In this document: in pieces, positions 60,001 to 64,000 of the stretch
Numbering within the stretch: position 1 is the stretch's first letter
How the letters are laid out: each line of letters begins with the position of its first letter
Assembly (NCBI RefSeq): GCF_001447785.1
Contig: NW_015159759.1
Span: 68,112 to 132,111 of the forward strand
Reading direction: 5' to 3'
DNA: 64,000 nt
From: Gekko japonicus
Taxonomy: Eukaryota
Program-made: the position numbers

Positions 60001-63000
60001 ACCAGATATGCAGAAACATCTGGGATTTAAGGGAAAAAACCTCCCTAAAATAATAGAACAAGTGCCTATACTTTAAGAAATGGGTATCATATGAGATCTC
60101 ATTGGCCATTGGGAGGGTTGCTAGGCAATTACAACAATATTGCCGGCTTTCAAGCCTTGTTTTCTGTCAAGAAAAAACTGGGGTGAGGGCCATTTGGGGC
60201 TATGCAGTCCACCCTTGCTCCCCACTCCCCTGCCCTGTAGGGAAGATGCACACTTAGCTATTTGCCCCCACAGGGGAATAACGAGACAGACAACCATTTG
60301 GATTAAACAAGGGCCACTTTATTAACTATATATATTTTATGAATAGCAAACTGGCAAGGGAGCACTTCCTTAGCAGCGGAACAGCCAAGGCAGGCGTCAG
60401 TCTGACCAGCCTCCTTGTCTGATACATATGGGCGATGCACCAACCCCGGTCCTGGGCCATTAACCTGGCTTGCGACCAGCAGCCCAGCCGCGGGTCGCCT
60501 CCCGGGAGCGCCTACCCCTGAAACCTTACAGTTTGCAGAGAGGAGCTTTACCCAAGAGGCTCCCGTAAGGAGTCCTCGTTTACCGCCCGGGGCCTTAATA
60601 GCCCGCAAGCCGTTCCCGAAGACCCCCCAGTTCCCAAAAGACGGGACGGCTTAAGGTGCTCACCAATTCCGCTGCCTTATTCCTGCCATATACTGCCAAA
60701 GTGACCGACCTATTTACCGTAGCCACGCCCTTACCCCTACTTCCAATGATCCAGTGTAAGGTAGGCGAAAAAACACTACCACCCTCCTTGCCAATCTTGG
60801 GTGATAGCGAAAAATTCCTACCTGGCTCCCAAATGGGCGACCAGCCGCAGCCTACACTAGCTTAACCGGGCGGGCGGGCGAGCACGAGGCTGAAACTGAC
60901 AAAGGGGGGCGGGAGCAGAGCCGTGCCTAGCCAGGCCGGCTCCGCCCCTCCCCACGTCCCAGCTCTCCAGGCGTCAGTCTGACCAGCCTCCTTGTCTGAT
61001 ACATATGGGCGATGCACCAACCCCGGTCCTGGGCCATTAACCTGGCTTGCGACCAGCAGCCCAGCCGCGGGTCGCCTCCCGGGAGCACCTACCCCTGAAA
61101 CCTTACAGTTTGCAGAGAGGAGCTTTACCCAAGAGGCTCCTGTAAGGAGTCCTCGTTTACCGCCCGGGGCCTTAATAGCCCGCAAGCCGTTCCCGAAGAC
61201 CCCCCAGTTCCCAAAAGACGGGACGGCTTAAGGTGCTCACCAATTCCGCTGCCTTATTCCTGCCACTTGCAAAGCCAAGCCTCTGCTTTGGCTGACGCGG
61301 CCACCAAACCACTTAAGGCAGCCGTGATCCCTTGCCGGATGTCCTCTAAAAATAACTGGTTGCCCTTGTCTGACAAGTGGATGCCATCCTCCCTGCACAG
61401 GTCCAGGTCCTAGACCCCTATTCCAAGGTGTGGTAGATACTGGCCCAAAACCACCCCCGTTCCGTCTAGAGAACAAGGAGCTTCCCGTGCAGAAAGACTC
61501 CGTCACCTTTTGGTCTATAATAAACTCTTGAACCTGCCCCTAAGTGCTAAAGTCGTGTTTCTCTTATAAATTCCAGAACTATACTCTGGTTGAACTTATT
61601 AAGAAGGGCACTGCACTTAACAAACATTACTACGAAAAACAATTGAAGAAAGATTTCATCGTGCTTTCATGTGTGCTTCATTCTTATAAGACTGAGGAAT
61701 GCCTATCTAGGCACTGTTGAAAGGAAACTAACAAGTCACACAACTTGTCTAATAGATGCTGAAAACCTAGCCCAAGTAAACTTCTCGTCCCTTCTGTTGA
61801 AAATGAGGATCAGCAGAACTGCTCATAACCGGAAGGGATCCTCCGGCTTCACTCTGTAAAATCAATAGTACGTTTTTTATGTAATGTCCGCGGTCCTTAA
61901 AGACTCTTGAGCTTGTCCTGGACTGCCAAGGAGCTCAAATCAGTCAATCCGAAATAAATCAACCCCGAGTGCCCCTTGTAAGGCCAGTTAAGGAAACTGC
62001 AGCTCAAATACTTTGGCTACCAAATGAGAAGGGAGCACTCCACTGGAGAAGGCAAGACCTGAAAGACTCTTGAGCCTGCCCTTAATCACAGTTGGGCTTG
62101 CAATAAAACAATAAAAAAGGCAAGCCTCGGCGGCCCCTCCAGCCAAAAGGTCCACGGATGTCGTTCCCACTCCAGGCTTTTCCCTTAGACTGGGGATAAA
62201 TAGGGCTTCGCTTCGAGAGTTGGACTACAGGGAAGGCTGAAAAATAGGTTCTTTTGCACTGCGGTGCTGGAGAAGTCTCTTGCGAGTCCCTTGGACTGCC
62301 AAAACGATCAAATCAGTCAATCCTAAAAGAGCTCCACCCCGATTGTTCCCTGGAGGGCCAGATAATGAAACTAAAACTCAGATACTTTGGCCACCCACTG
62401 AAAAGGGAGCACCCACTGGAGAAGCCCCTGATTGAAGGTCAAAGCAGACGGGGACCGCAAAGAACGAGGTGGCCAGACAATGCCAGCGACTCCACGAACC
62501 TGAAACCGACCCAACCCCAGAGGACGGCGGAAGACAGGGAGCTGTAGGACAAACCCTGCGCCAGCAGTAGCCAACTCGGCTCACAGTGGCTCCCAGTGAA
62601 CCCGAACCTGCACGCGGCTATTGCTCTGAGGTCCAGGCCCCGCCCCGCGACGTGCAGACCCTCACCTGGGACTCCCCGCCAGCAGCCACTTCCCTTGCTC
62701 ATTAGAACTGCCCGTGGAGTGGGTGAGGGGGAAACGCCGCGGCCAACAATGGGGCCCCTGCCACTTGTGCCCCTGGAGCGGGTGCAGGGGGAGCACCGCG
62801 CCAAACACTGGGCCCCCGCCACACGGACCGATGGAGTGGGTGAATGCAACTGGCCCCCGCTCCGTGCCGCCAGTGGTGAGGGTAAAGGGAAAGCCCCGCC
62901 TGAACAACGCCCCCCCCCCGTGTAGCCAATGGCGTGGGGGAAAGGGCAGCACCGCTCCTAACAATGGGCCATGTGCAGCCCCTGGTATGGGGGGAAGGGG

Positions 63001-64000
63001 AGGCGCCAAGCCAAGCCAGGCCCCGAGGCGGCTACCCAACCTGGACTCTTCCCGCCGCTTCGATGGGGGGGGGAAGCCTCCTATGTTGTCCCGCGCTGTC
63101 TCCCCGGTGGCCCACCGAGCAGCGGGGGGGGTGTTCACTCCCGGGCCAGGGCAAAAAGGCCGACTCACCCGGGGAGGGGGTGTCGCCGTAACTTACTCCA
63201 CCGGCCCCAGGCCTCGCTACCGGACGAAGGGGGCTCGAAGGGAGCTGCTTAGCCAGGCCATGAGGCCCCGCCGCCGCCGCGCTCCCCCGCGCTCTGGAGC
63301 CCCGACCCCCACGAGCAGCCTCCTGGCCTTCACGTCCCTTCTGCCCGCCCCCCTGACCGCCCCCGGAGTACTTCCTGCGGTCTTGCGCTGACCCGCTGAC
63401 GTTGGCGGACAACCCGTTCCGCGCCGCGGCCCGGCGATCGCTTCTGCCACCGCTTCAGCCGCCGCTGCTTTCCCTGGCCGATCCGCCCACACTACGGCCC
63501 AAGCGATTGCCCCCGCGCCACCGTTGTTGCCTTCGCTGCGGCCCTCGGCCCACAACACAGCCCAGTAGGCCCAGCAGCAAGGCAGCACCACCAGCCCCGC
63601 TTGCTCCGACCGAGCACGAGGCTGAAACTGACAAAGGGGGGCGGGAGCAGAGCCGTGCCTAGCCAGGCTGGCTCCGCCCCTCCCCACGTCCCAGCTCTCT
63701 GCGCTTTCCCCGCGGCGGCAAACCAGCCCCCAGCCACCATTGCCTTCGGCGGCGGCCGGGAGCTTCCTTCCATATGCAGAACAGATACTCTGTGTGCAGT
63801 TTGATTTTGCTTGCAGTTATCTCTTTGAGAAATATAATTGTTCTGTAAACAGAACATGGATTCTCTGAAAGTGAATCTCTGGATAACATGCCAGCTAGTT
63901 AGTGTCTGAAAGCAAAAACCTAAAGTAAAAATGTAACTGACCTTAAGGTAGCTAACTGGGAGCAGACCTTTGTGAGTAATACAAAATTGACGATCCACCA

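What the first reader, a model, noticed from the sequence alone, without database searches (positions are those of the whole stretch)
60275..63771. Young non-autonomous Ngaro-type element with split direct repeats (A1...B1-A2...B2)
Seen: a 298-bp repeat pair (2 mismatches) and an 89-bp pair (1 mismatch) in split order on the minus strand, with B1 abutting A2; very GC/CpG-rich; no TSD; no RT or recombinase ORF in the 2.3 kb between A1 and B1. Known: split direct repeats define Ngaro/PAT-type YR retrotransposons. Inference: a recently mobilised, coding-dead derivative that borrows enzymes in trans. Such derivatives are poorly catalogued, so it may be an undescribed family.
Basis: partly seen in the sequence, partly recalled or inferred. 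Interest (0 to 1): 0.7.

Follow-up and report, generated by a model that had tools for sequence, protein, structure and literature searches.

The report
Non-coding split-direct-repeat element, mobility unproven
A 3.3-kb CpG-rich, protein-less block in a reptile-like genome carries two interleaved repeat pairs laid out as in tyrosine-recombinase retrotransposons, but it is a single copy here and nothing shows that it has moved.

Summary
On the + strand, a 298-nt pair (60391-60688 / 60968-61265, 2 mismatches) and an 89-nt pair (60879-60967 / 63611-63699, 1 mismatch) are interleaved. The first 89-mer abuts the second 298-mer, and the two spacers (190 and 2345 nt) are unrelated. Read on the minus strand this is A1-[2345]-B1A2-[190]-B2, the split-direct-repeat layout of Ngaro, PAT and VIPER elements.

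The block is non-coding and has no target duplication. CpG o/e is 0.5-0.9 against 0.13 in both flanks, and all three repeat mismatches are CpG transitions. That points to recently arrived, methylated DNA.

The Ngaro label is not established:
- No RT/RH/YR relic, no second copy in the window and no partner sharing the repeats was found.
- The CpG-rich block runs 72 nt beyond A1, which a terminal-repeat model does not predict.
- No eukaryotic genome collection was available, so copy number is untested.

Non-coding derivatives of such elements are already in print (SIRE/VIPER, TOC1). Verdict: a plausible non-autonomous split-direct-repeat element (about 0.45). Rivals are a head-to-tail pair of another transposon type, a complex local rearrangement, or an assembly duplication. 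A separate degraded DIRS1-like element lies 2.4 kb upstream.

The parts
63611..63699 (-). A1: 89-nt repeat, 5' copy on the minus-strand reading. It folds as an imperfect hairpin.
   Evidence: 88 of 89 identical to 60879-60967. One search folded the 60879-60967 copy, which differs from this one at 1 of 89 positions: single-strand DNA fold -25 kcal/mol, z -2.8, 2 of 200 shuffles as good.
61266..63610 (-). 2345-nt non-coding interior between A1 and B1
   Evidence: no Pfam domain above cutoff in its ORFs; no period-3 signal; no RT/RH/YR relic; the 253-aa ORF has no relatives.
61885..62070 (+). LINE 3'-end-like fragment 1. I take it for BovB/RTE-like from recall only.
   Evidence: 78% identical over about 153 nt to fragment 2. 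No tool named the family.
62248..62620 (+). LINE 3'-end-like fragment 2, same caveat. Its right bound is approximate.
   Evidence: The 99-aa open frame 62248-62544 had no Pfam hit.
62621..63610 (.). GC zone (GC 0.70, CpG o/e 0.70) holding a degenerate 59-nt tandem repeat at 62711-62843
   Evidence: Its long ORFs show no codon periodicity.
60968..61265 (-). B1: 298-nt repeat, abutting A2
   Evidence: 296 of 298 identical to 60391-60688.
60879..60967 (-). A2: 89-nt repeat, internal copy
60689..60878 (-). 190-nt spacer between A2 and B2, unrelated to the interior, CpG o/e 0.76
60391..60688 (-). B2: 298-nt repeat, 3' copy. CpG richness stops at its outer edge.
63700..63771 (.). 72-nt CpG-rich extension outside A1 (8 CpG, o/e 0.9). 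It belongs to the young block but not to the repeats. Unexplained.
   Evidence: It has no similarity to any other part of the block.

Best explanation
The block is a protein-less element with the split-direct-repeat architecture of the DIRS order (Ngaro, PAT or VIPER type). The layout is best read on the minus strand:
- A1: 89 nt, 63699 down to 63611
- non-coding interior: 2345 nt
- B1: 298 nt, directly abutting A2
- A2: 89 nt
- spacer: 190 nt
- B2: 298 nt, ending at 60391

Proposed mode of action, by analogy with the published model for these elements: a transcript running from A1 to B2 is reverse-transcribed by enzymes supplied by an autonomous element elsewhere. The internal B1A2 junction serves as the template or splint that brings the B2 and A1 ends together. 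A tyrosine recombinase then inserts the product without making a target-site duplication.

Shown here: the geometry, the exact B1|A2 abutment, the lack of any coding capacity, the absence of a TSD, and the recent arrival of the whole block in methylated DNA.

Inferred only: the RNA intermediate, the trans-acting partner, the orientation, and mobility itself.
For: - The interleaved repeat pairs and the exact abutment are real. The layout matches the published definition: A1 at the 5' end and B1, A2, B2 at the 3' end (passages of PMC9210276; 'A1-[ORFs]-B1A2B2', PMC8547959).
- The two units share both ends but have unrelated middles. Conserved termini around variable interiors is the pattern of a mobile family, not of a simple duplication.
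- The CpG o/e step from 0.13 in the flanks to 0.5-0.9 in the block marks a discrete insertion. Its left edge coincides with the outer edge of B2.
- All 3 repeat differences are CpG transitions. CpG positions make up 52 of the 387 repeat positions, so chance gives about 0.002 (my arithmetic). The DNA is therefore subject to CpG decay, and its high CpG content means youth rather than island protection.
- There is no TSD and no inverted repeat of 30 nt or more.
- DIRS-order elements live in this genome: the neighbour at 52560-57961 has RT, a YR SAM-like domain, ITRs and an ICR.
- Precedents exist for protein-less relatives. SIRE corresponds to the A2..B2 part of VIPER, 'solo AB' repeats occur in Cafeteria, and TOC1 is called a non-autonomous DIRS element.
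Against: - It is a single copy. Nothing else in the 64-kb window matches D1, D2, the spacer or the interior, and genome-wide copy number could not be tested.
- No RT/RH/YR or gag relic survives anywhere in the block. Nothing ties it by descent to any Ngaro.
- The CpG-rich block extends 72 nt beyond A1, whereas these elements are said to be bounded by their repeats.
- A2 and B2 are 190 nt apart, while Ngaro is drawn as B1A2B2. VIPER/SIRE does have a spacer of about 30 bp.
- The only RT/YR element in the window is of the ITR/ICR (DIRS1) type and shares no sequence with the block.
- Protein-database probes found no relatives. These were the 253-aa interior ORF, the 121-aa ORF across B1A2 and a 51-aa peptide. 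The single hit, P0001 (E 4.5e-4), is a tandem-repeat translation.
- The orientation rests on analogy only.
Confidence: 0.45

Rival explanations
1. The block is two head-to-tail members of some other mobile family whose conserved ends are D1 (298 nt) and D2 (89 nt). On the + strand a short 577-nt member (60391-60967) sits directly next to a long 2732-nt member (60968-63699). They would have been joined by site-specific or rolling-circle insertion next to an existing copy. The family could be a YR DNA transposon (Crypton-like) or an unclassified element rather than a retroelement.
For: Both units have the same ends, unrelated middles and zero spacing. D2 carries a hairpin whose 3' arm ends 14 nt before the unit end (reading). 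All three CpG decays lie in the long unit, as if the two units had separate histories.
Against: There are no terminal inverted repeats. The unit ends do not read 5'-TC...CTRR-3' on either strand (reading; the motif is recalled). No transposase, Rep/helicase or YR ORF is present. Cryptons are described as flanked by 4-6 bp direct repeats (passage of PMC13465315), and none is seen here. Structurally this reading cannot be told apart from the split-direct-repeat reading.
Confidence: 0.15
2. The block is not a transposon. A GC-rich segment arrived recently, for example as a segmental copy of a CpG-island-like region, and then underwent a complex local rearrangement. A tandem duplication with a replaced middle, of the template-switching kind, would by accident mimic the A..BA..B order.
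For: This reading explains the 72-nt CpG-rich overshoot without special pleading, because D2 would simply lie inside a larger young block. The block is single-copy in the window. The interior is a patchwork of LINE-like fragments, a degenerate 59-nt tandem repeat and low-complexity GC-rich DNA.
Against: It needs a duplication plus replacement of 2345 nt by an unrelated 190 nt, or the reverse, which means several breakpoints. No source of the 190 nt exists in the window. The result would have to land by chance on the exact layout that defines a known element class.
Confidence: 0.2
3. The block is an assembly artefact. Two alleles of one locus (D1-190 nt-D2 and D1-2345 nt-D2) were laid one after the other, so the repeats would be one sequence seen twice and the three mismatches would be heterozygous sites.
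For: The same window holds a 98-100% identical duplication (26650-27801 vs 28583-29745) on either side of an N run, a typical false duplication. This reading would also explain the 72-nt overshoot.
Against: There is no N run or other seam at 60967|60968. The two 'alleles' would still differ by an unexplained replacement of unrelated sequence.
Confidence: 0.1

Closest known systems
Ngaro-like retrotransposons (DIRS order), e.g. DIRS-53_XT of Xenopus tropicalis
   Same: The split-direct-repeat order A1...B1A2...B2 is the same. The repeats are of similar size and near-identity: DIRS-53_XT has A 236 bp and B 152 bp, both 100% identical (passage of PMC9210276). Ngaro inserts have likewise been spotted as GC-rich blocks inside AT-richer DNA (PMC8547959).
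   Different: The block has no gag, RT/RH, YR or hydrolase ORF. A2 and B2 are 190 nt apart. There are 72 extra CpG-rich nt outside A1. No sequence kinship to any Ngaro has been shown.
SIRE, the short non-coding relative of VIPER in Trypanosoma cruzi
   Same: SIRE corresponds to A2, a short unique spacer of about 30 bp, and B2 of its parent (PMC6681497). The 577-nt unit A2-190 nt-B2 here has that form, and the same open question applies: mobile hitch-hiker or remnant.
   Different: The host is a kinetoplastid, not a vertebrate. Here the short unit is attached to a long non-coding unit rather than to a coding parent. Copy number is unknown.
TOC1 of Chlamydomonas, which the paper calls a non-autonomous DIRS retrotransposon
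   Same: It is a protein-less member of the DIRS order, reported with copy-number variation among strains (passage of PMC9940879).
   Different: The host is an alga. I recall its repeat layout as split, but I did not see this in any call. No sequence comparison was possible.
Solo AB repeats of Cafeteria Ngaro elements
   Same: They are isolated A-B units thought to arise by recombination between the 5' and 3' repeats (PMC8547959).
   Different: Here the AB-like unit is not isolated. It still sits in the full A..BA..B context.
DIRS1-like elements (ITR plus ICR), such as the neighbour at 52560-57961
   Same: Same order of elements, same genome, 2.4 kb away.
   Different: The finding has direct, not inverted, repeats and no internal complementary region. 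There is no sequence similarity between the two.

Membership tests
Ngaro-like (DIRS order) | Split direct repeats in the order A1 ... B1 A2 B2, with A1=A2 and B1=B2 | tested here: met
   89-nt pair 88/89 identical, 298-nt pair 296/298 identical, B1 abuts A2. Definition taken from passages. A2 and B2 are separated by 190 nt.
Ngaro-like (DIRS order) | The repeats form the element boundaries (A1 at the 5' end, B2 at the 3' end) | tested here: inconclusive
   The CpG o/e step coincides with the outer edge of B2 (60391), but on the other side it runs 72 nt past A1 (63700-63771). The boundary statement is from PMC3783388. No empty site was available.
Ngaro-like (DIRS order) | Encodes RT/RH and a tyrosine recombinase, without a methyltransferase domain | tested here: not met
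   0 of 61 ORFs had an RT, RH or YR match; no tblastn HSP below E 0.26; no coding periodicity.
Ngaro-like (DIRS order), non-autonomous derivative | Termini or interior share sequence with an autonomous RT/RH/YR element of the same genome | not testable with these tools
   No eukaryotic genome collection was available. Within the window, the only RT/YR element (52560-57961) shares nothing with the block.
Any transposable element family | Several dispersed copies with the same ends | not testable with these tools
   There are 0 further copies in the 64-kb window. The genome was not searchable. Protein-level probes were negative.
YR retroelements generally | No multi-base target-site duplication | tested here: met
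   and direct reading of both candidate boundaries.
PAT-like (DIRS order) | Split direct repeats plus an MT domain downstream of RT/RH | tested here: not met
   The repeats are met, but there is no MT or any other domain. Ngaro and PAT therefore cannot be told apart here (criteria).
DIRS1-like | Inverted terminal repeats plus an internal complementary region | tested here: not met
   0 inverted repeats of 30 nt or more in 58000-64000. One search found only 20-nt chance-level pairs touching the block.
LTR retrotransposon / TRIM / LARD | One pair of equal LTRs around an interior, TG..CA ends, 4-6 bp TSD | tested here: not met
   There are two interleaved pairs of different length. Either pair taken as LTRs leaves the other unexplained. 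No TSD. D1 reads CA..CA on the + strand. The TG..CA rule is recalled.
Helitron | 5'-TC ... CTRR-3' ends, insertion between A and T, 3' hairpin | tested here: not met
   The unit ends read CAGG...CTCTC on the + strand and GAGA...CCTG on the minus strand. A hairpin is present in D2. The motifs are recalled.

The most novel reading that the evidence does not exclude
This is a very recently inserted, wholly non-coding split-direct-repeat element in an amniote (squamate-like) genome. It is assembled from captured LINE fragments and CpG-island-like DNA, and it carries a 72-nt leader outside A1. That would imply a currently or recently working tyrosine-recombinase retrotransposition machinery in this lineage, which recognises only about 390 nt of terminal repeats. 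The machinery might even be that of the abundant DIRS1-type elements acting on a foreign repeat layout.
Probability: 0.25. Interest if true: 0.55.

Novelty: new member of a known kind. Interest (0 to 1): 0.35.

Why it matters
If other copies with the same ends exist, this would be a catalogue entry for a class that repeat libraries rarely record in vertebrates: protein-less passengers of tyrosine-recombinase retrotransposons.

It would also show which sequences such machinery needs. Here that would be at most an 89-nt and a 298-nt repeat plus their junction, because nothing else in the element is conserved between its two units.

It would mark recent activity of this element class in a reptile lineage. 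The block sits about 500 nt from an exon-like stretch of an unidentified gene, so it is also a candidate structural variant.

If it proves single-copy or an assembly duplicate, it is a warning. The A..BA..B dot-plot pattern alone is not enough to call a Ngaro.

Tried and rejected
- **Tandem duplication plus internal deletion.** Rejected: the 190-nt spacer has no similarity to the 2345-nt interior on either strand.
- **TSD or longer flank homology.** The 'GGGAGC..TTCCTT' likeness I saw by eye scores 17, which is within the shuffle range.
- **SGNH-hydrolase relic just upstream of B1.** I recalled a resemblance between a 'DGIHLS..G' stretch in 61257-61409 (minus strand) and block V of SGNH hydrolases, a domain some Ngaro elements carry. 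It had no Pfam hit even at E<=10. There were no relatives among longer proteins (64 candidates, none at E<=0.01). PDB gave only SPT4 at E 0.6. Not supported.
- **Coding potential of the long GC-zone ORFs.** The 253-aa ORF has no relatives (4913 candidates, none at E<=0.001). Period-3 signal is 0.7-1.2 times background and GC is flat across codon phases.
- **ORF across the B1A2 junction (121 aa) against 1.84 billion representatives.** One hit, P0001, at E 4.5e-4. It is a four-fold tandem-repeat translation, so I dismissed it as a low-complexity match.
- **Reading whole frames through stops for Pfam.** I did not pursue this another way.
- **Rfam on the block.** Only sub-threshold miRNA-hairpin look-alikes at the 89-nt repeats (22-25 bits against cutoffs of 74-90).
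- **Paralogous empty site.** The flanks match nothing that bridges the insertion.
- **Prokaryotic origin.** A 27-nt junction word has 0 exact matches in 185,579 bacterial and archaeal genomes. This is a weak test.
- **ESM Atlas look-up of the LINE-like ORF.** Closed. The BovB/RTE label therefore stays a recollection.
- **Goodwin and Poulter 2004.** Not held. What I say of their model comes from other papers' passages or from recall.
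Full report
**What is there**

On the + strand of 60391-63699 two repeat pairs are interleaved. D1 is 298 nt (60391-60688 and 60968-61265) with 2 mismatches. D2 is 89 nt (60879-60967 and 63611-63699) with 1 mismatch (blastn E 8e-152 and 2e-39). D2a ends one base before D1b begins.

The stretch between D1a and D2a is 190 nt. The stretch between D1b and D2b is 2345 nt. The two are unrelated on either strand (best local score 21 against a shuffle mean of 20.8). No other copy of any part lies in the 64-kb window, and no inverted repeat of 30 nt or more lies in 58000-64000. 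Only the outer limits (60275, 63771) go beyond the repeats.

**Composition and age**

The whole stretch 60391-63771 has CpG o/e of 0.5-0.9. That includes the AT-richer middle (61266-61899, 0.54) and the LINE-like zone (0.50). Both flanks stand at 0.13 and the window as a whole at 0.29.

The left step falls at the outer edge of D1a. The right step falls 72 nt beyond D2b, where 63700-63771 holds 8 CpG at o/e 0.9.

All three differences between repeat copies are CpG-to-TpG or CpG-to-CpA changes. That is 3 of 26 CpG sites changed against 0 of 335 other positions (counts). By my arithmetic the chance that three random changes all hit CpG positions is about 0.002. The DNA is therefore subject to methylation-type decay. 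Its high CpG content then means recent arrival, not a protected CpG island. All three decays lie in D1b and D2b.

**Coding capacity**

There is none that I can find.
- Of 61 six-frame ORFs of at least 40 aa in 60200-64000, 60 had no Pfam match at E<=0.01. One had a sub-cutoff PH_20 match.
- The long ORFs of the 70%-GC zone show no three-base periodicity.
- The longest ORF (253 aa) has no relatives among 4913 word-sharing candidates.
- Nine RT/RH proteins fetched with the neighbour's RT, plus 8 single-frame ORFs of that neighbour, give nothing better than E 0.26 against the block.
- A stretch just upstream of B1 reminded me of the last block of SGNH hydrolases, a domain some Ngaro elements carry. 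It found no support in Pfam, the protein collection or PDB.

The interior holds three recognisable pieces. Two are fragments on the + strand that I take, from recall only, for 3' ends of a BovB/RTE-type LINE (61885-62070 and 62248 to about 62620; 78% identical to each other). The third is a degenerate 59-nt tandem repeat.

**What the layout means**

Read on the minus strand, the order is A1 (89) - 2345 - B1 (298) A2 (89) - 190 - B2 (298). That is the split-direct-repeat arrangement by which Ngaro, PAT-like and VIPER elements are recognised (passages).

Simple alternatives fail.
- A tandem duplication with an internal deletion is excluded by the unrelated spacers.
- Either repeat pair taken as LTRs leaves the other pair unexplained.
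- There are no terminal inverted repeats and no TSD.
- The unit ends are not Helitron-like (motif recalled).

Two units with the same ends and different middles, joined head to tail without a spacer, is what a family mobilised through its termini looks like. In the DIRS order, that internal junction is the part thought to restore and join the ends of the cDNA. For DIRS-1 the corresponding internal region has been shown to be essential (abstract and passages of PMC7192593).

I therefore rank a protein-less split-direct-repeat element first, at about 0.45.

**What speaks against it**

- Membership in Ngaro proper cannot be claimed. The family is told from PAT and VIPER by its proteins, and none is left here.
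- No kinship to any autonomous element is shown, and copy number could not be examined. The only DNA collection open to me was bacterial and archaeal, and a 27-nt junction word had 0 matches there.
- The 72-nt CpG-rich overshoot beyond A1 is not predicted if the repeats are the ends. It could be a leader carried along, a remnant of the target, or a sign that D1 and D2 simply lie inside a larger young segment. I cannot tell which.
- The 190-nt A2-B2 spacer departs from the B1A2B2 drawing, though VIPER/SIRE has a short spacer.

**Rivals**

- The same structure as a head-to-tail pair of some other mobile family (0.15).
- A complex local rearrangement of a recently acquired GC-rich segment (0.2).
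- An assembly duplicate of two alleles (0.1).

The assembly rival gains some colour from a 98-100% identical duplication on both sides of the N run at 28095-28573. However, there is no seam at 60967|60968.

**Neighbourhood**

A separate, degraded DIRS1-like element lies 2.4 kb upstream on the + strand (52560-57961).
- It has a gag-like zinc-knuckle ORF, RVT_1 (54792-55640; E 3.7e-7 for the best piece) and RNase H-like sequence.
- It has a YR N-terminal SAM-like domain (56512-56937; E 2.4e-4, below Pfam's cutoff).
- Its inverted terminal repeats are 52560-52710 and 57775-57961.
- Its internal region 57635-57726 is complementary to the start of the left repeat and the end of the right repeat. 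This is the textbook DIRS1 arrangement.
- Its RT/RH gene (outer bounds 54792-56526) is broken. Depending on the comparator there are 1-4 frame changes between successive matches and 2-5 in-frame stops (6 comparators). The YR region is also spread over more than one frame.
- It shares no DNA with the finding. It is the only RT-bearing stretch in the window.

Its RT is 29-41% identical to the nine proteins returned. The named ones come from two squamates, a salamander and a killifish.

**Host**

I do not take the window for human. DIRS-order elements are reported absent from mammals, birds and alligator (passage of PMC4350176), and the RT relatives point to squamates and amphibians.

The N run was left alone. 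One exon-like stretch (59804-59878) was searched alone and matched nothing in PDB.

**Novelty**

Non-coding relatives of split-direct-repeat elements are known: SIRE, TOC1 and solo AB units. My phrase searches for non-autonomous DIRS or Ngaro elements found two papers, of which the one listed is about Chlamydomonas. I therefore saw none described for a vertebrate, within the limits of an open-access library.

If confirmed by a copy census, this is a new member of a known kind. If not, it is a single odd locus.

Noticed in passing
window 52560-57961 (+): Degraded DIRS1-like retroelement with ITRs (52560-52710, 57775-57961) and an internal complementary region (57635-57726). It carries a gag-like ORF, RT/RH and a YR. 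The RT/RH gene is broken by 1-4 frame changes and 2-5 in-frame stops, depending on which of 6 comparators is used. The RT is 29-41% identical to the nine proteins returned, whose named sources are two squamates, a salamander and a killifish.
   Followed up: yes
window 31852-40719: 402-nt inverted arms (82% identical) 8 kb apart, a palindrome of about 290 nt at 37963-38251, and a weak LAP2alpha-like match at 39678-39998 (+) (E 2e-4, below cutoff). That domain is reported in DIRS-like gag proteins. No RT/YR match was found in 79 ORFs. Possibly another, more decayed DIRS-like element or a composite.
   Followed up: partly
window 1-1741: Tandem satellite of about 365-bp units. The first three copies are 96-97% alike and later ones 61-68%.
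   Followed up: no
window 26650-27801 and 28583-29745, N run 28095-28573: Near-identical (98-100%) direct duplication on both sides of an N run, which looks like a false duplication at an assembly gap. The N run was left as it is.
   Followed up: no
window 21664-21737 (+) and 58394-58465 (+): Two tRNA-Ala-like sequences (anticodons GGC and TGC; Rfam 34.3 and 44.6 bits). They could be tRNA genes or tRNA-derived SINE heads.
   Followed up: no
window 20001-21500: The only other strongly CpG-rich stretch in the window (o/e 0.63-0.80, GC 0.46-0.57). It has a 48-nt two-copy repeat but no split repeats. Candidate CpG island.
   Followed up: partly
window 59803-59879 (+): Exon-like stretch: an open frame rich in E, K and R between an AG and a GT, about 500 nt upstream of the block. 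No PDB match. The gene is not identified.
   Followed up: partly
window 24900-25278 and 24000-26000: C-rich degenerate short repeats with strong negative GC skew (-0.31 to -0.35).
   Followed up: no
window 42418-42666 vs 48148-48417 and 49420-49616: Three copies of an interspersed repeat of about 250 nt (88-96% identical), one of them inverted relative to the other two. SINE-like.
   Followed up: no
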